This document shows positions 10,750 through 28,664 of a stretch of DNA of 64,000 bases, piece by piece. The stretch lies in the IMG/VR virus record IMGVR_UViG_3300020048_000058; one strand, 5' to 3'. This stretch comes from a virus. Numbering within the stretch: position 1 is the stretch's first letter; each line of letters starts with the position of its first letter. The position numbers and the translations under genes are program-made. The notes under the pieces are model-generated. The model ran no database searches. It was not told the DNA's origin and saw only the letters and a list, made by a program, of their open reading frames with translations.

Positions 10750-10943
10750 ATCAAATCGCATCTCAGACTTTAAGTAGATTAAATGGTCGTAACAAATCAG
10801 TGTTAATTGGCAAGGCTTACCCCCTAGGGAATAGTGGATCTGTATTCTCTGGGATGGGTAAAAGTTTTGTAGCCAAAGGGGTGGTTACTGGTAAGGCGAT
10901 CGCCTTTAAGCACAATGGTAAATGGCAAGTTGTACAAGGTTAA
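10737..10943 (+). CDS. small hypothetical protein (68 aa)
   Basis: Track ORF. Its last 4 codons and stop form the first unit of the 16-bp tandem repeat. Confidence 0.4.
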   Translation: MATVNQIASQTLSRLNGRNKSVLIGKAYPLGNSGSVFSGMGKSFVAKGVVTGKAIAFKHNGKWQVVQG

Positions 10944-11107
10944 ATGAGTACAAGGTTAAATGAGTACAAGGTTAAATGAGTACAAGGTTGAATGAGTACA
11001 AGGTTGAATGAGTACAAGGTTAAATGAGTACAAGGTTAAATGAGTACAAGGTTAAATGAGTACAAGGTTGAATGAGTACAAGGTTGAATGAGTACAAGGT
11101 TAAAATA
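10932..11107 (+). repeat. 16-bp tandem repeat, about 10.7 copies (GTACAAGGTT[A/G]AATGA), organised as two 80-bp higher-order units
   Basis: Units start at 10932 + 16n. The variant pattern at unit position 11 is A,A,A,G,G,A,A,A,G,G,A, so 10932-11011 equals 11012-11091. The last, degenerate unit leads directly into the ATG at 11107. Confidence 0.97.
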
Positions 11108-13395: not shown

Positions 13396-15090
13396 ATGGG
13401 AATGTTTTCGGATATTGATTATTCTTTGATTGTTTTGCAATTAGAGAAGGCAATGGCTAATGGTGTGGCTACCTTGGATTCAAATACTAAGGTTCCTAAA
13501 GCTCAGATTAGTTTAACCGCTTCTGATGTTGGTGCGATCGCGTCTACTGGCAACGAAGTTTTAACAAGTTTAAACGCCGCGTCTGGCACAATTTCATCTG
13601 GGCTTTTACCGTCTTATGTTGATGATGTCCTGAGTTATACAAACCTTGCCGGGTTCCCAGGTACTGGCGAAGCTGGAAAGATTTACGTTGCAGAAGATTC
13701 CAATAAAGTTTACCGATGGTCGGGTTCTGTTTATGTTGAGATATCGAGTTCTGCTACTGCGGGAGAGGCTTTAAAACTAACCACGCCACGGACAATTGAA
13801 GCGACGGGAGATGCAAGTTATTCGGCATCTTTTGATGGTTCAACCAATGTTACAAGTGCGATAACACTGGCAACGGTCAATAATAATACTGGTTCTTTCG
13901 GTAGCGCTAGTTCAATTCCTGCTATTACTGTCAATGCTAAGGGTCAAGTAACTGCGGTTTCAACTAACAGTATCGGGAATGAATTAATTGCATTACAATC
14001 TTTAGCTGACACCCCAGGATTTTTAAAGAAAACTGGTAACGGGACTTATTCTATTGATGTTAATTCCTATCTTTCATTGGCAGGTGGGACTATCACGGGG
14101 GACTTGATTTCAACTAGCGCAACGGCATCAACATCAACAACTACAGGGGCTTTAAGGGTCGCTAGTTTAGGGGTTACGGGTGCTATTTTTGCTGGTACTG
14201 TTAGTGCCAATTCTTACAATTTGATTCCTATTTGGAGAGGAGAGGGAAACATAGGCACAAATACAGTAACAGGAGTTAGTGCGCTTTTGTCCAATACAAC
14301 AGGAGGGAATTTATCTGCCTTTGGAGTTAATTCGCTTCTGTCCAATACCACAGGATGGAATTTATCTGCCTTTGGAGTTAATTCGCTTCTGTCCAATACC
14401 ACAGGATGGAATTTATCTGCCTTTGGAGCTTTTTCGCTTCAGTCCAATACAACAGGAGGGAATTTATCTGCTTTTGGAGTTAGTGCCGGACGCTTTATTT
14501 CCGATGGCGTTACGGGGCTAACAATATCAAATAACTCTTGTTTCTTCGGCATGAACACCAAAGGAACCCAGAACGCAACCAATGAGAACGTATTTGGCTA
14601 CAACGCCACCGGAAACGGCTCAAACACCGTAACAATTGGTGATTCAAATATTACCAATACCTACCTAAGAGGTGTGATATCAACTAATTCCACAACACCT
14701 TCAACCTCTCCCACCACGGGAGCTAGTGTAATTCCTGGGGGTCAAGGGGTTCAGGGAAATCAATATGTTGGGGGTTTTAGTTCTTTGGGTGGGGACGCAA
14801 GTCATCCAGGGATTAAGATTAAGGTGCTAACGGGAACTACGGCAGCAACACAAGGGGGGGGTGTAGGAATAGCTCATGGAATAGCTGATATAAACAAAAT
14901 AATTTCAGTTAATCTTTGGGTGAATACAGGTCAGGGGTTGGGGTTATTTGCACCCCCTAATTATACAAATGGAGCCATCCAATATAATTTTATGCTTTAT
15001 GGGGGTCATATTTCTGTAGAAAATCACCCATCAAACAGTTACAACCTTTTGTCAAAACCAGTCACAATAACAATAATTTACACGGCATAA
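13396..15090 (+). CDS. tail fibre protein
   Basis: N-terminal tail-fibre motifs: LDSNTKVPKAQI; GKIYVAEDSNKVYRWSGSVYVEI; KLTTPRTIEATGDASYSASFDGSTNVTSAITL; ITVNAKGQVTAV. Followed by SNTTGxNLSAFG repeats. Confidence 0.75.
   Translation: MGMFSDIDYSLIVLQLEKAMANGVATLDSNTKVPKAQISLTASDVGAIASTGNEVLTSLNAASGTISSGLLPSYVDDVLSYTNLAGFPGTGEAGKIYVAEDSNKVYRWSGSVYVEISSSATAGEALKLTTPRTIEATGDASYSASFDGSTNVTSAITLATVNNNTGSFGSASSIPAITVNAKGQVTAVSTNSIGNELIALQSLADTPGFLKKTGNGTYSIDVNSYLSLAGGTITGDLISTSATASTSTTTGALRVASLGVTGAIFAGTVSANSYNLIPIWRGEGNIGTNTVTGVSALLSNTTGGNLSAFGVNSLLSNTTGWNLSAFGVNSLLSNTTGWNLSAFGAFSLQSNTTGGNLSAFGVSAGRFISDGVTGLTISNNSCFFGMNTKGTQNATNENVFGYNATGNGSNTVTIGDSNITNTYLRGVISTNSTTPSTSPTTGASVIPGGQGVQGNQYVGGFSSLGGDASHPGIKIKVLTGTTAATQGGGVGIAHGIADINKIISVNLWVNTGQGLGLFAPPNYTNGAIQYNFMLYGGHISVENHPSNSYNLLSKPVTITIIYTA
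14281..14484 (+). repeat. 4 x 51-bp in-frame tandem repeat inside the tail-fibre gene (17-aa unit SLLSNTTGWNLSAFGVN)
   Basis: Units at 14281, 14332, 14383 and 14434. Units 2 and 3 are almost identical. Confidence 0.95.
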
Positions 15091-25546: not shown

Positions 25547-26314
25547 ATTTCAATCCATAAAATAGGCAATCGTCTATTGCGGGATGGATACTTAAATCAT
25601 CATCAACTAAACAGGGATGTTTCAATCCATAAAATAGGCAATCGTCTATTGCGGGTTTAAACGGGGAACCCAATTGTTTTTAGTCAGGATGTTTCAATCC
25701 ATAAAATAGGCAATCGTCTATTGCGGGTTTTGCTAAGTCGGAATGGTAATTAGCATCAAAATCGTTTCAATCCATAAAATAGGCAATCGTCTATTGCGGG
25801 TTCCCTTTACTTTTAAACTGATAATAGCTATCAGGGTTTCAATCCATAAAATAGGCAATCGTCTATTGCGGGAAAAAGCATACGATACAGCTATAAAAGA
25901 AGGTTATCTATTAGTTTCAATCCATAAAATAGGCAATCGTCTATTGCGGGAAAACCCCTGCATAGGCTTTTCTACCATAGAACGGTTTCAATCCATAAAA
26001 TAGGCAATCGTCTATTGCGAGATCAAAGCCATTAAGAATAGGATAAAAAACATCCAAGTTTCAATCCATAAAATAGGCAATCGTCTATTGCGGGTTTGGG
26101 TCTATCTGTTGGGTTACGACCGGGGGATTAGTGTTTCAATCCATAAAATAGGCAATCGTCTATTGCGGGTTCCGTTTACTCTGGGAACCATTCAAGGCAT
26201 CATTGTTTCAATCCATAAAATAGGCAATCGTCTATTGCGGGTTTATAACCATGTTCTGGGGATGATGCCAGAAGAAGGTTTCAATCCATAAAATAGGCAA
26301 TCGTCTATTGCGGG
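25547..26314 (-). CRISPR. CRISPR array: 11 repeats of 37 bp, 10 unique spacers (34-41 bp)
   Basis: The repeat reads GTTTCAATCCATAAAATAGGCAATCGTCTATTGCGGG on the + strand. Copies start at 25547, 25619, 25691, 25764, 25836, 25914, 25985, 26058, 26133, 26205 and 26278. Repeat 1 has A at position 1, and repeat 7 has A at position 36. There is an internal hairpin GCAAT-CGTCT-ATTGC. The minus orientation is inferred from three observations: the degenerate repeat is distal, the reverse-strand 3' end reads ATTGAAAC, and the array is co-directional with the nuclease gene. Confidence 0.97.
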
Positions 26315-26333: not shown

Positions 26334-28007
26334 TCAGGCGTTTCTATCGAAATCACCTAAGCTCATTCGATTTATTATAGCATGAGTTTTGGCGGTTTCG
26401 GCAACTAAAAAATCGTGAACCCCGTTTTTAAACAAATCATCTGGAATTGTTATGGTGTCTGACTTTTTGGTTTTTTTCTTGGTTGCCTTTTTAGAAGAGC
26501 TAGGGGTTGCCGAATTTTTATTAATCAGGAATTTATACCAGAAATTATCGGACAATTCCACACCTTGATTGATTGCCATTTGAGCTAAACCTTTTAACTT
26601 AATGTTCTGTCCTGAGTTGACATCACGAGCAACGGTATAACCACAATTAGAGCATTTGTGAGTGCGTTGAGATAGCTTTTTCTTCTCTTGATGTCCACAC
26701 TTCGCACAACATAAAGTAGTTCCCCAATTATCAACCCGAATCACTAATTTTCCGTGTTCCTTTGCTTTGGTTTCTAATAAATCAATAGCTTGACCAATAG
26801 CTACGTCACTCCCTGTTCTGTTACTTCCTCGTTTGCGTTTTTGATTATTTTTATCGTAGATAACTGTACCATTTTCGGCAACCACTGGATTTCCTTCTGT
26901 GTCTAATTTTGCCTTGGCTTTAGCTTTTCGGTAGACGTTGGCGGGTTTGTAATCCTCAACAAAAATCACGTCAAACCAATTGATTAAATTGGTAGAATGC
27001 CAGTGATTGAATGATCGGCGGTGACGGGCGATTTTCTCATGAAGTTTAGCAATTTTATTATTGAGTTTCTCCCAATTCTTAGTTTTCCCCTCGTTCATTC
27101 GATACTTGCGAGATAATTGTTGCTGCATTTTCCTTAGACGTTTTAGCGATCGCTTTAAAGGTTGTGCAGCCTCAATAGTATGACCATTATCCAATGCCAT
27201 AACAAACTGATGTCCGGGGTCAATTCCACAACATAACCCTGTCTTCTTGGCTTGCTTGACAGGGACGGACGCAGTTAATTGTACATACCACCCCGACGCT
27301 TTTTTGCAAATTTTCATCGGGTTAAAATCGCAACCATACCACCGTTTATCAAATCCAATTACCTCGATATAACCCAATTTTGGAATATTGATCTTACTGT
27401 CCTTAACACCTAGATCCTTAGCGTTGTAATGGATTAAAGTCATTACCTTATCTTTAGCTGTTTTGAAACGTGGACGGCTGTGGCGACCCGCTAGAAATCC
27501 CTCCCAAGCCTTTGATAGTTCATGCGCTACACCTTGAATGAATTTTGCCGGGCAATCGGTGAAATTAACTTTTCGCTCCTCACCTCTAACTAAATAAGTC
27601 ACAATCCGATCCTTGTGGTGCTGATGTCCAAATACCTTTAGGAACCCGTATAGTACCGACTTTTTAGAATCCAGTGAGTCAATAATAGGGCTATTTTCAT
27701 CAATGGCGACGGGATGGATTAACCCCCTTTTCTTCTCGACTCGCTCAATCCCCATCTTCCAATCTGGGATCTCAATTCGTACCCATTGCTTGAGCTTGCG
27801 GTCGTATCGTTGCAGGGGAGTTGCAGGGACGTTAGACTTTGACAGTTTATCGTAAGGGTTCCACTCGTTAAATTCCTCTATCAGTCCTAATGAGCGATTC
27901 CAAACCCACTTACAAACTAGCATCCAATCTTCTAGGGTTCGCTCTTGTTCTGAAGATAGAATGAGTTTAAACTCCTTTGTTCGCACATTTTCGCTAAAAT
28001 TAGACAT
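26334..28007 (-). CDS. cas12: TnpB-like RuvC nuclease, candidate miniature type V CRISPR effector (Cas12f / V-U-like), 557 aa
   Basis: TnpB-type N-terminus KEFKLILSSEQERTLEDWMLVCKWVWNRSL. RuvC-I is GIDPG (D263), RuvC-II is FVEDY (E351) and RuvC-III is ARDVNSGQNI (D462). Zinc ribbon CAKC...CSNC (C434/437, C452/455). Lys-rich C-terminal tail. The stop codon lies 19 bp from the nearest CRISPR repeat. Confidence 0.85.
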   Translation of the reverse strand: MSNFSENVRTKEFKLILSSEQERTLEDWMLVCKWVWNRSLGLIEEFNEWNPYDKLSKSNVPATPLQRYDRKLKQWVRIEIPDWKMGIERVEKKRGLIHPVAIDENSPIIDSLDSKKSVLYGFLKVFGHQHHKDRIVTYLVRGEERKVNFTDCPAKFIQGVAHELSKAWEGFLAGRHSRPRFKTAKDKVMTLIHYNAKDLGVKDSKINIPKLGYIEVIGFDKRWYGCDFNPMKICKKASGWYVQLTASVPVKQAKKTGLCCGIDPGHQFVMALDNGHTIEAAQPLKRSLKRLRKMQQQLSRKYRMNEGKTKNWEKLNNKIAKLHEKIARHRRSFNHWHSTNLINWFDVIFVEDYKPANVYRKAKAKAKLDTEGNPVVAENGTVIYDKNNQKRKRGSNRTGSDVAIGQAIDLLETKAKEHGKLVIRVDNWGTTLCCAKCGHQEKKKLSQRTHKCSNCGYTVARDVNSGQNIKLKGLAQMAINQGVELSDNFWYKFLINKNSATPSSSKKATKKKTKKSDTITIPDDLFKNGVHDFLVAETAKTHAIINRMSLGDFDRNA

Positions 28008-28008
28008 A

Positions 28009-28028
28009 CCTATTTAAGAAATTGAAAC
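28009..28028 (-). promoter_or_regulatory. inverted degenerate CRISPR repeat fragment in the nuclease 5' UTR, ending 1 nt before the ATG
   Basis: The reverse strand reads GTTTCAATTTCTTAAATAGG against repeat positions 1-20 GTTTCAATCCATAAAATAGG (16/20 identical). It is oriented opposite to the array repeats, so it is complementary to a minus-strand crRNA repeat (18/20 pairs counting G-U). Confidence 0.6.
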
Positions 28029-28035
28029 GTATGTA

Positions 28036-28064
28036 TTGACATTTCCATTATATACAACTATAGT
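28036..28064 (+). promoter_or_regulatory. near-consensus sigma70-type promoter on the + strand (TTGACA-17-TATAGT)
   Basis: TTGACA at 28036-28041, a 17-nt spacer, and TATAGT at 28059-28064. It points away from the nuclease gene into the 220-bp intergenic region. Confidence 0.55.
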
Positions 28065-28070
28065 GGAATC

Positions 28071-28217
28071 ACCGACGTTTAGATCGGCAAGCCAAAAGCT
28101 GCCCTTGGAGCCGAAAGGATTAACGATTAGGCGATGAAGAGGGAATATTCTCTAGCCAGATATGGTTAGCAATTTTAAAAATAGGTAATCAACTTAAAGG
28201 GGCTCCGGCCCCTTTTT
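28071..28217 (+). ncRNA. candidate tracrRNA (about 150 nt)
   Basis: Bounded by the promoter above and a hairpin GGGGC-tccg-GCCCC plus TTTTT (28199-28217). It has no plausible ORF. An anti-repeat at 28170-28190 pairs with the minus-sense repeat. The motif CCAAAAGCTGCCCTTGG (28092-28108) resembles part of the Un1Cas12f1 tracrRNA as I recall it. Confidence 0.45.
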
Positions 28218-28229
28218 AGTAGACTCCAT

Positions 28230-28664
28230 CTATTTTTGAAACCGAAATAAAGAGTCAGCCTTGACAATCTCAATCTCAACACAAAGGGCTTTCAATCTCT
28301 CAAAAGCCACCACCGGATCGGCTTCAAAATCAACTGGACTAGATCCGGTCATCGGAGCGTCGGACACCGCCCCCAATGGCTCAAAGGCACGGGATTTGTT
28401 ATTCCAAAAAAACACTCTGTTAATATGTCGCTCTATTGCTTCCGGTGTTTCGAGAAAACAATAGATAAGTCCTGCGACAATAGCCTGCCTGACATCGGTT
28501 CTGAATCGCCTTTTATCGAGTTTAATTGTCCATAATTCAGATAGAAATTCCTCGTCGGTTTCTACATCATACCAAAGGCACTCACAGGAAAATGTATGTA
28601 GGTCGTTGTCGTGAATCTTTGGGGTAGTTTGAAAGCCTTTTTTAGCGAGTTTAGTTGTTTTCAT
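28230..28664 (-). CDS. hypothetical protein (144 aa)
   Basis: Track ORF between the C5-methyltransferase and the CRISPR-effector locus. Confidence 0.5.
   Translation of the reverse strand: MKTTKLAKKGFQTTPKIHDNDLHTFSCECLWYDVETDEEFLSELWTIKLDKRRFRTDVRQAIVAGLIYCFLETPEAIERHINRVFFWNNKSRAFEPLGAVSDAPMTGSSPVDFEADPVVAFERLKALCVEIEIVKADSLFRFQK

What the first reader, a model, noticed from the sequence alone, without database searches (positions are those of the whole stretch)
28036..28217. Candidate tracrRNA transcribed divergently, just upstream of the nuclease gene
Seen in the sequence: the 220-bp gap upstream of the effector contains the following.
- A + strand promoter, TTGACA (28036-28041), 17 nt, TATAGT (28059-28064).
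- No credible ORF.
- A GC hairpin plus T-run (28199-28217).
- Just before the hairpin, a degenerate same-sense copy of the repeat. Segment 28170-28190 (CAAUUUUAAAAAUAGGUAAUC) can pair with repeat nucleotides 13-33 of a minus-strand crRNA (GAUUGCCUAUUUUAUGGAUUG). The pairing is 13 bp, a 2-nt internal loop, then 6 bp, including three G-U pairs.

From memory, and needing verification: the published Un1Cas12f1 (Cas14a1) tracrRNA contains CACCAAAAGCUGUCCCUUAGGGGAUUAG. Here 28092-28108 reads CCAAAAGCUGCCCUUGG, followed by GGAUUAACGAUUAGG.

Established knowledge: Cas12f, Cas12b, Cas12e and Cas12k need a tracrRNA whose 3' part pairs with the repeat.

Inference: an RNA of about 150 nt from roughly 28071 to 28217 is the tracrRNA of this system.
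Basis: partly seen in the sequence, partly recalled or inferred. Interest (0 to 1): 0.8.

Follow-up and report, generated by a model that had tools for sequence, protein, structure and literature searches.

The report
tracrRNA gene of a cyanophage CRISPR nuclease
The 220-bp gap upstream of a small phage-encoded CRISPR nuclease holds a conserved, structured RNA gene of about 147 nt whose 3' end pairs with the CRISPR repeat, so it is very probably the missing guide-RNA partner (tracrRNA) of a little-studied nuclease family (V-U2/C2c8-like).

Summary

- **Conserved block:** it runs from the promoter (TTGACA-17-TATAGT) through five helices and the anti-repeat to a GC hairpin plus T5. It is conserved in about 30 related phage contigs.
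- **Same layout in distant relatives:** three cyanobacterial or metagenomic loci with effectors only 31-38% identical keep the same upstream-divergent layout.
- **Structure:** the helices show compensatory changes. G·U pairs outnumber A·C 42 to 3, which fixes the + strand as the RNA strand.
- **Anti-repeat:** it tracks each locus's own repeat. It always starts right after the last helix and leaves the last 4 repeat nucleotides unpaired.
- **Relatives with a different layout:** in more distant relatives the same scaffold lies co-directionally inside the 3' tail of the nuclease ORF, like a TnpB omega RNA.

Two corrections:
- The effector is V-U2/C2c8-like and TnpB-like, not Cas12f.
- The 15/16-nt match to the Un1Cas12f1 tracrRNA is real but sits in a variable hairpin and is probably chance.

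A second, inverted repeat-like element lies over the nuclease start codon. It is also conserved and is unexplained. No expression data were available.

The parts
28036..28041 (+). -35 box TTGACA of the tracrRNA promoter
   Evidence: 11/12 match with the -10 box. TTGACA is kept in L013-L018 and L022; L032 has TTGCAC.
28059..28064 (+). -10 box TATAGT, 17-nt spacer; predicted start near A28071
   Evidence: Relatives have TATAAT, TATGAT, TATCAT or TATATT at the same place. The conserved RNA block starts 4-7 nt downstream.
28071..28217 (+). Predicted tracrRNA, about 147 nt. Helices: P1 28072-28075/28084-28087; P2 28088-28092/28098-28101; P3 28102-28106/28139-28143; P4 28110-28112/28130-28132; P5 28152-28158/28163-28169.
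   Evidence: Covariance-model hits of 152 and 137 bits. Covariation. Strand from 42 G·U against 3 A·C. No Rfam family matches.
28170..28190 (+). Anti-repeat; pairs with nt 13-33 of the minus-sense repeat and leaves AAAC unpaired
   Evidence: The L018 anti-repeat follows its own repeat, including a 2-nt shortening.
28199..28217 (+). Intrinsic terminator: GGGGC-TCCG-GCCCC plus T5. It may also stop the upstream minus-strand gene.
   Evidence: Sequence. The position is conserved while the stem sequence is replaced in L013-L018, L028 and L031, with G·U pairs on this strand.
26334..28007 (-). Effector, 557 aa, V-U2/C2c8-like TnpB-derived nuclease. The RuvC Asp (D263, D462) and four zinc-finger Cys are invariant across the 17 aligned homologs.
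25548..26314 (-). CRISPR array: 11 repeats of 37 nt (minus sense CCCGCAATAGACGATTGCCTATTTTATGGATTGAAAC) and 10 spacers of 34-41 nt. The last repeat is degenerate (…GAAAT).
27991..28029 (-). Second repeat-complementary element, in the effector 5' UTR and over its start codon (minus strand CGTTTCAATTTCTTAAATAGGTATGTCTAATTTTAGCGA). Function unknown.
   Evidence: -26.7 kcal/mol with the repeat. Conserved and tracking the local repeat in L018, L028, L022 and L032; absent in co-directional loci.
28047..28052 (-). Candidate -10 box TATAAT of the divergent effector promoter (inferred)
   Evidence: Sequence. It is kept on both strands even where the 18-bp core is inverted in L013-L017. There is no good -35 box.

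Best explanation
The gap upstream of the nuclease gene encodes a stand-alone tracrRNA.

**Proposed mechanism**
1. A sigma-70-type promoter (28036-28064) starts transcription near A28071 on the + strand.
2. The RNA folds into a five-helix scaffold (P1-P5).
3. It continues into a 21-nt anti-repeat (28170-28190) and ends at an intrinsic terminator (28199-28217).
4. The array is transcribed on the minus strand, behind the nuclease gene.
5. Each repeat's nt 13-33 pair with the anti-repeat, leaving AAAC before the spacer.
6. The duplex plus scaffold is bound by the 557-aa RuvC nuclease. The duplex is presumably cut by host RNase III.
7. The result is a dual-RNA guide for DNA targeting.

**Shown here:** the sequence features, their conservation, base-pair covariation, the transcribed strand, and co-evolution of repeat and anti-repeat.

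**Inferred:** transcription itself, the RNA ends, RNase III processing, and the requirement of this RNA for nuclease activity.
For: - **Features in place:** all features sit at the stated coordinates.
- **Module boundary:** the block from the effector ATG to the terminator is conserved in about 30 phage contigs, while the flanks beyond it differ.
- **Covariation, close relatives:** a MAFFT alignment of 8 sequences gives 99.5% paired cells and 6 pairs with double changes. None of 500 shuffles reach this, and slid controls give 18-42%.
- **Covariation, family-wide:** 24 sequences give 95.7% paired against 70.8% shuffled, and 22 of 24 pairs show compensatory change (this alignment is model-fitted).
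- **Independent check:** MAFFT plus RNAalifold on the core recovers P3 and P4, with 7 of 8 pairs compensated.
- **Strand:** 42 G·U against 3 A·C. Pairing is 95.7% on the given strand and 87.2% on the opposite strand.
- **Position of new hits:** model hits in loci not used for training all fall next to the effector. L022, L023 and L032 are upstream-divergent, and L022 and L032 have their own TTGACA-type promoter and terminator.
- **Cognate pairing:** the anti-repeat zone pairs with its own repeat at a mean of -18.1 kcal/mol, against -11.3 for non-cognate repeats. The cognate repeat is best in 9 of 13 loci. The register is constant: (G/A)CAA directly after P5, with the last 4 repeat nt free.
- **Co-folding:** the gain is -15.2 kcal/mol against -6.8 ± 2.6 for shuffled repeats.
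- **Array direction:** it fits a minus-sense crRNA. The terminal repeat is degenerate, and the 3' end ATTGAAAC is conserved across relatives.
Against: - There are no transcript data of any kind. The promoter call rests on consensus and conservation only, and promoter-like sites are no more frequent here than in shuffles.
- Pairing energy of the anti-repeat is not unique in the 64-kb window; 0.19% of windows do as well.
- The hairpin could also serve as terminator of the upstream minus-strand ORF (28230-28664).
- The covariance-model E-values are rough, and the family-wide alignment is fitted to the model.
- Whether the nuclease needs this RNA is untested.
Confidence: 0.86

Rival explanations
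1. There is no stable RNA. The gap is only a divergent promoter region, and the hairpin is the terminator of the upstream minus-strand gene (28230-28664).
For: The hairpin lies 13 nt after that ORF's stop. In L013-L017 it has T runs on both sides. A minus-strand TATAAT lies at 28052-28047.
Against: This does not explain five helices with compensatory changes, the G·U bias for the + strand, or an anti-repeat that tracks the repeat in loci whose upstream genes are unrelated.
Confidence: 0.03
2. It is a structured RNA bound by the nuclease but not a classical tracrRNA. It could be a regulatory or decoy RNA that titrates repeats or the protein, or an omega-RNA remnant no longer needed for targeting.
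For: A second repeat-complementary element in the effector 5' UTR shows that repeat pairing is used for something else in this locus. The homologous scaffold is part of the mRNA in relatives.
Against: The scaffold, the junction and the pairing register are kept over effector divergence down to about 30% identity, in both layouts. That is what is expected of an essential guide component. The RNA carries no guide of its own, since the terminator follows the anti-repeat directly.
Confidence: 0.08
3. The functional RNA comes from the minus strand. The effector transcript would start upstream of 28217 and carry the 5' UTR anti-repeat-like element as the true anti-repeat.
For: The minus-strand element at 28029-27991 pairs with the repeat more strongly (-26.7 kcal/mol) than the + strand anti-repeat does.
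Against: The helices contain 42 G·U pairs that become A·C on the minus strand. The promoter and T run are on the + strand and conserved. No scaffold precedes the minus-strand element. L023 has the scaffold but no clear 5' UTR element.
Confidence: 0.03

Closest known systems
tracrRNAs of compact TnpB-derived type V effectors (Cas12f, Cas12n, TranC clades)
   Same: A long structured scaffold is followed by a 3' anti-repeat that pairs with the 3' part of the repeat. The effector is small and TnpB-like. The scaffold is related to an omega/right-end RNA. In relatives it lies in the coding region of the C-terminal tail, as stated for Cas12n in bioRxiv 10.64898/2026.03.27.714800.
   Different: The effector family is different: C2c8/V-U2-like, with no significant hit to Un1Cas12f1. 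There is no sequence homology to the Un1Cas12f1 scaffold beyond one 15/16-nt match. Here the gene sits upstream and divergent, with its own promoter and terminator.
Streptococcus pyogenes type II-A tracrRNA (own knowledge: Deltcheva et al. 2011)
   Same: It is an independent small RNA gene upstream of the nuclease gene on the opposite strand. Its anti-repeat pairs with every repeat of the pre-crRNA, and RNase III processes the duplex.
   Different: The effector class is unrelated (Cas9). In Cas9 the anti-repeat is at the 5' part of the tracrRNA; here it is at the 3' end. RNase III involvement here is only inferred.
TnpB omega RNA / right-end RNA (ISDra2 type)
   Same: The effector's best solved relatives are ISDra2 TnpB (2e-20). 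In 10 related loci the homologous scaffold overlaps the 3' end of the nuclease ORF on the same strand.
   Different: In the window the scaffold is split from the guide, moved upstream and inverted. It ends in a terminator instead of a guide. The guides come from a CRISPR array.
V-U2 CRISPR locus of Aphanizomenon phage vB_AphaS-CL131 (PMC6293099)
   Same: It is a cyanophage locus with a TnpB-like effector directly followed by an array of about 10 spacers and no other cas genes. The effector is 30% identical.
   Different: That paper reported no tracrRNA and left the array direction open. My model gives only a non-significant hit there, between the effector and the array (E 0.37).
scoutRNA of Cas12c/Cas12d (own knowledge)
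   Same: It is a trans-encoded RNA needed together with the crRNA.
   Different: scoutRNA pairs with the repeat over only a few nucleotides. Here the duplex is 19 bp within 21 nt.

Membership tests
tracrRNA (trans-activating CRISPR RNA, types II and V) | Encoded in the CRISPR-cas locus, outside the array | tested here: met
   It lies 64-210 nt upstream of the effector start. The same or an adjacent position is seen in 24 loci.
tracrRNA (trans-activating CRISPR RNA, types II and V) | Anti-repeat complementary to the repeat, co-varying with it | tested here: met
   19 bp within 21 nt. The cognate repeat is the best partner in 9 of 13 loci, at -18.1 against -11.3 kcal/mol.
tracrRNA (trans-activating CRISPR RNA, types II and V) | Conserved structured scaffold linked to the effector family | tested here: met
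tracrRNA (trans-activating CRISPR RNA, types II and V) | Expressed as a discrete small RNA | not testable with these tools
   Only promoter and terminator motifs and their conservation are available.
tracrRNA (trans-activating CRISPR RNA, types II and V) | Required for crRNA maturation and/or interference | not testable with these tools
   Needs reconstitution or genetics.
Cas12f (V-F) guide RNA, Un1Cas12f1 type | Effector is a Cas12f | tested here: not met
   NCBIfam Cas12f2 scores 36 bits against a cut-off of 450. No Un1Cas12f1 chain is among the PDB hits.
Cas12f (V-F) guide RNA, Un1Cas12f1 type | Scaffold homologous to the Un1Cas12f1 tracrRNA | tested here: not met
   There is a single 15/16-nt local match. 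It lies in a hairpin whose sequence varies within the family.
Subtype V-U2 (C2c8) | Effector matches the C2c8 model | tested here: inconclusive
   It is the best family at 302 bits (E 8e-90), but this is below the curated cut-off of 350. Homologs P0014 and P0032 are named C2c8.
Subtype V-U2 (C2c8) | Effector next to an array, no adaptation genes, cyanobacterial setting | tested here: met
   The neighbours are ThyX, a DNA methylase and DnaB. Relatives are cyanobacterial genomes and cyanophages. Only the ORFs near the locus were scanned.
TnpB omega RNA | Scaffold overlaps the 3' end of the nuclease gene, same strand, fused to the guide | tested here: not met
   The window RNA is upstream, on the opposite strand, and ends in a terminator. 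The feature is met for the scaffold position in 10 related loci.

The most novel reading that the evidence does not exclude
The locus may carry a two-site repeat-sensing circuit.

- Besides the tracrRNA, the nuclease mRNA has an anti-repeat-like element over its ribosome-binding region and start codon (28029-27991).
- Pre-crRNA repeats could therefore pair either with the tracrRNA or with the nuclease mRNA.
- Nuclease translation or mRNA stability would then depend on the ratio of tracrRNA to repeats.
- The element occurs only in the lineages where the omega-RNA-like scaffold moved out of the nuclease ORF and became an independent divergent gene.

This would be a documented step in the split of an omega RNA into tracrRNA and crRNA, together with a new autoregulatory device.
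Probability: 0.2. Interest if true: 0.7.

Novelty: new member of a known kind. Interest (0 to 1): 0.55.

Why it matters
- **An open subtype becomes testable.** A 2024 review still lists V-U2/C2c8 without effector size or PAM (PMC11641405). The only paper I found on a phage V-U2 locus reported no tracrRNA and an unknown array direction (PMC6293099).
- **What is now defined.** A scaffold, an anti-repeat register, an RNA strand and a crRNA orientation. With these, a 557-aa phage nuclease and its relatives can be reconstituted and tested, including a single-guide design that joins 28190 to repeat nt 13.
- **Evolution.** The family has both layouts: the scaffold inside the ORF tail, and the scaffold as a separate divergent gene. 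This gives a concrete series for how omega RNAs split into tracrRNA plus crRNA.

Tried and rejected
- **Rfam:** no family matches the RNA at any threshold.
- **Homology to the Un1Cas12f1 tracrRNA:** rejected.
- **Alternative local hairpin GAGGG…CUCU (28139-28153) instead of P3:** rejected. L015 and L018 would have A·C mismatches, whereas P3 is kept by changes in L014, L015, L031 and the distant loci.
- **Spacer targets:** 36 spacers searched against 50,697 phage records gave no match. All 97 spacers searched against the window and all loci gave no informative protospacer, so no PAM could be derived.
- **CreR/scaRNA-like reading of the 5' UTR element:** the 41 nt following it on the + strand have no second match in the window at up to 3 mismatches for 16 nt or more.
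- **CL131 phage:** the model finds only a weak hit between the effector and the array (E 0.37).
- **L054:** its model hit (E 0.058) has no matching anti-repeat and was dropped.
- **Literature:** a full-text search for the core motif GAUGAAGCAGGAA and its variants found no CRISPR or TnpB paper. PMC12171694 (twelve new type V subtypes) could not be read.

Full report
**Setting**

- The window carries a minimal CRISPR module on the minus strand.
  - A 557-aa ORF (26334-28007) has OrfB_IS605 and Cas12f1-like TNB domains.
  - 19 nt after its stop codon comes an array of 11 repeats of 37 nt (25548-26314).
- The neighbours are phage-like: ThyX, a C5 DNA methylase and DnaB.
  - The only nucleotide match in the phage collection is to Planktothrix phage PaV-LD, over the hypothetical ORF and methylase genes.
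- The effector is not a Cas12f.
  - Its best NCBIfam model is C2c8 (subtype V-U2): 302 bits, E 8e-90, below the curated cut-off of 350.
  - Next are the TnpB models. Cas12f2 scores 36 bits.
  - The best solved relatives are ISDra2 TnpB (2e-20). No Un1Cas12f1 chain is matched.
  - The RuvC Asp and zinc-finger Cys residues are invariant among homologs.

**The observation**

- Taken alone, the features are weak.
  - Promoter-like sites are as frequent as in shuffles.
  - 0.19% of all 45-nt windows in the 64 kb pair with the repeat as well as the anti-repeat window does.
- Comparative evidence decides the case.

**Close relatives**

- The effector recurs at 74-99% identity in about 30 IMG/VR and metagenome contigs.
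- In all of them the block from the effector ATG to the hairpin is conserved. The sequence beyond the hairpin differs between lineages.
- The gap therefore belongs to the module.
- Changes inside the block are mostly compensatory.
  - P5 reads CTAGCCA/TGGTTAG in the window, CCAGCCA/TGGTTGG in L014, CCAGTCA/TGACTGG in L018 and CCATCCA/TGGATGG in L031.
  - P2 changes from A-U to G-C in L014.
  - P3 changes from U-A to C-G in L031.
  - The terminator stem is replaced altogether but stays in place, with G·U pairs on the + strand.
- Counts on a MAFFT alignment of 8 distinct sequences:
  - 99.5% of cells are paired.
  - 6 pairs have changes on both sides.
  - None of 500 shuffles reach this.
  - Slid controls give 18-42% pairing.

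**Distant relatives**

- A covariance model built from the close relatives finds the RNA upstream and divergent in two further loci.
  - L022 is a Floridaenema evergladense genome contig with an effector 38% identical.
  - L032 has an effector 36% identical.
  - Each has its own TTGACA-type promoter and a GC hairpin plus T run.
- A second model adds L023 (Geitlerinema, divergent layout) and a dozen loci with effectors about 25-33% identical.
- In those loci the scaffold lies on the effector strand, right after the RuvC/zinc-finger region.
  - In 10 of 13 such loci it is inside the effector ORF's 3' tail.
  - This is the layout of a TnpB omega RNA, and the layout stated for Cas12n.
- Every new hit falls next to an effector and in one of these two arrangements.
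- Across 24 sequences (this alignment is model-fitted):
  - 95.7% of cells pair, against 70.8% in shuffles.
  - 22 of 24 pairs show compensatory change.
- An independent MAFFT plus RNAalifold run on the core recovers P3 and P4, with 7 of 8 pairs compensated.
- The core consensus is CCUGnGGAG-[P4]-(A/U)UGAA(G/C)CAGGAA.

**Strand**

- The helices hold 42 G·U pairs and 3 A·C pairs.
- Pairing is 95.7% on the given strand and would be 87.2% on the opposite strand.
- Together with the promoter and the T run, this fixes the + strand in the window.

**Anti-repeat**

- In each locus the sequence directly after P5 starts with (G/A)CAA. It pairs with that locus's own repeat up to 4 nt from the repeat's 3' end. 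Examples, repeat against anti-repeat:
  - window: GAUUGCCUAUUUUAUGGAUUG against CAAUUUUAAAAAUAGGUAAUC
  - L018: UGCCUAUCAGGAAUUG against CAAUUAAUGAUAGGCA (2 nt shorter on both sides)
  - L022: CUGUUUGUUGAGUUG against CAAUUCAACAAACAG
  - L023: 12 of 12
  - L032: 13 of 13
- Own repeats pair at a mean of -18.1 kcal/mol against -11.3 for non-cognate repeats. The cognate repeat is best in 9 of 13 loci.
- Co-folding the window RNA with a repeat-spacer unit gains -15.2 kcal/mol, against -6.8 ± 2.6 with shuffled repeats.
- The array direction agrees with a minus-sense crRNA.
  - The repeat 3' end ATTGAAAC is the conserved part across relatives.
  - The effector-distal repeat is degenerate.

**Mechanism**

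- *Shown:* a conserved, structured, + strand RNA gene whose 3' end co-evolves with the repeat.
- *Inferred:*
  - It starts near A28071 and ends at 28213-28217.
  - It pairs with each repeat of a minus-strand pre-crRNA that is co-transcribed with, or just behind, the effector.
  - The duplex is processed by RNase III.
  - The nuclease binds scaffold, duplex and spacer as a dual-RNA guide.

**What does not hold**

- The recalled Un1Cas12f1 sequence is correct.
- The similarity is a single 15/16-nt stretch.
- It lies in hairpin P2, whose loop and sequence are not conserved in the family.

**Comparison and novelty**

- In kind, this is a type V tracrRNA of a TnpB-derived effector.
- The split of an omega RNA into tracrRNA and crRNA, and tracrRNAs for several TranC clades, have already been described.
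- Three points are new.
  - *Family:* it is V-U2/C2c8-like. A 2024 review still lists V-U2 without data, and the CL131 phage paper found no tracrRNA.
  - *Gene placement:* here the tracrRNA is an independent, divergent gene.
  - *Two layouts:* both occur within one effector family.
- I found no paper that reports this RNA. Supplements and subscription papers were largely out of reach.

**Unexplained**

- The minus strand from 28029 to 27991 spans the effector's 5' UTR and start codon. It is a second repeat-complementary element (-26.7 kcal/mol).
- It includes GTTTCAAT, which matches the last 8 nt of the repeat.
- It shares derived bases with the tracrRNA anti-repeat.
- It follows the local repeat in L018, L028, L022 and L032. 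It is absent from the co-directional loci.
- No second target for the adjacent sequence exists in the window.
- My best guess is a regulatory pairing of repeats with the nuclease mRNA. This is speculation.

Noticed in passing
window 27991-28029 (minus strand): A degenerate, inverted copy of the repeat covers the effector 5' UTR and start codon. It is complementary to the crRNA repeat, including its last 8 nt. It is conserved and tracks the local repeat in L018, L028, L022 and L032, and is absent where the scaffold is co-directional.
   Followed up: partly
window 28047-28064; L013-L017 upstream regions: The 18-bp promoter core ATTATATACAACTATAGT is inverted in L013-L017 (ATTATAGTTGTATATAAT). 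This keeps a -10-like box on both strands and suggests overlapping divergent promoters for the tracrRNA and the effector.
   Followed up: partly
L065 2277-2404, L034 2018-2161, L042 4319-4523 and others: In effectors about 25-33% identical, the homologous scaffold lies inside the 3' tail of the effector ORF on the same strand. In several loci (L034, L042, L055, L059, L060) the ORF runs on into the first repeat.
   Followed up: yes
arrays of window, L001-L004, L011-L014, L017, L018, L020, L027, L028, L030: There are 97 distinct spacers among 14 related loci plus the window (effectors 78-99% identical), although no cas1 or cas2 is near the effector. The arrays turn over, so spacers are presumably acquired with host adaptation proteins. 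No spacer target was found.
   Followed up: partly
L013 4948-6137, L014 5694-6550, L018 5687-6517: Arrays hold two or three repeat variants. In L014 the effector-proximal repeats (GATTATCTGG) pair less well with the unchanged anti-repeat than the distal ones (GATTGCCTGT).
   Followed up: no
L021 (JBIPMB010000293.1): A 3.4-kb contig 99% identical to this phage module is deposited in a MAG labelled Gammaproteobacteria. This is probably a binning error.
   Followed up: no
window 10932-11104 and 14272-14482: Two tandem arrays unrelated to the CRISPR locus: a 16-nt unit repeated 10.8 times (97% matches) and a 51-nt unit repeated 4.1 times.
   Followed up: no
window 28147-28151 (UUCUC): An invariant single-stranded AUUCUC lies between P3 and P5 in the window clade. 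L022, L032 and L065 have an extra hairpin there. It could form a pseudoknot or contact the protein.
   Followed up: no
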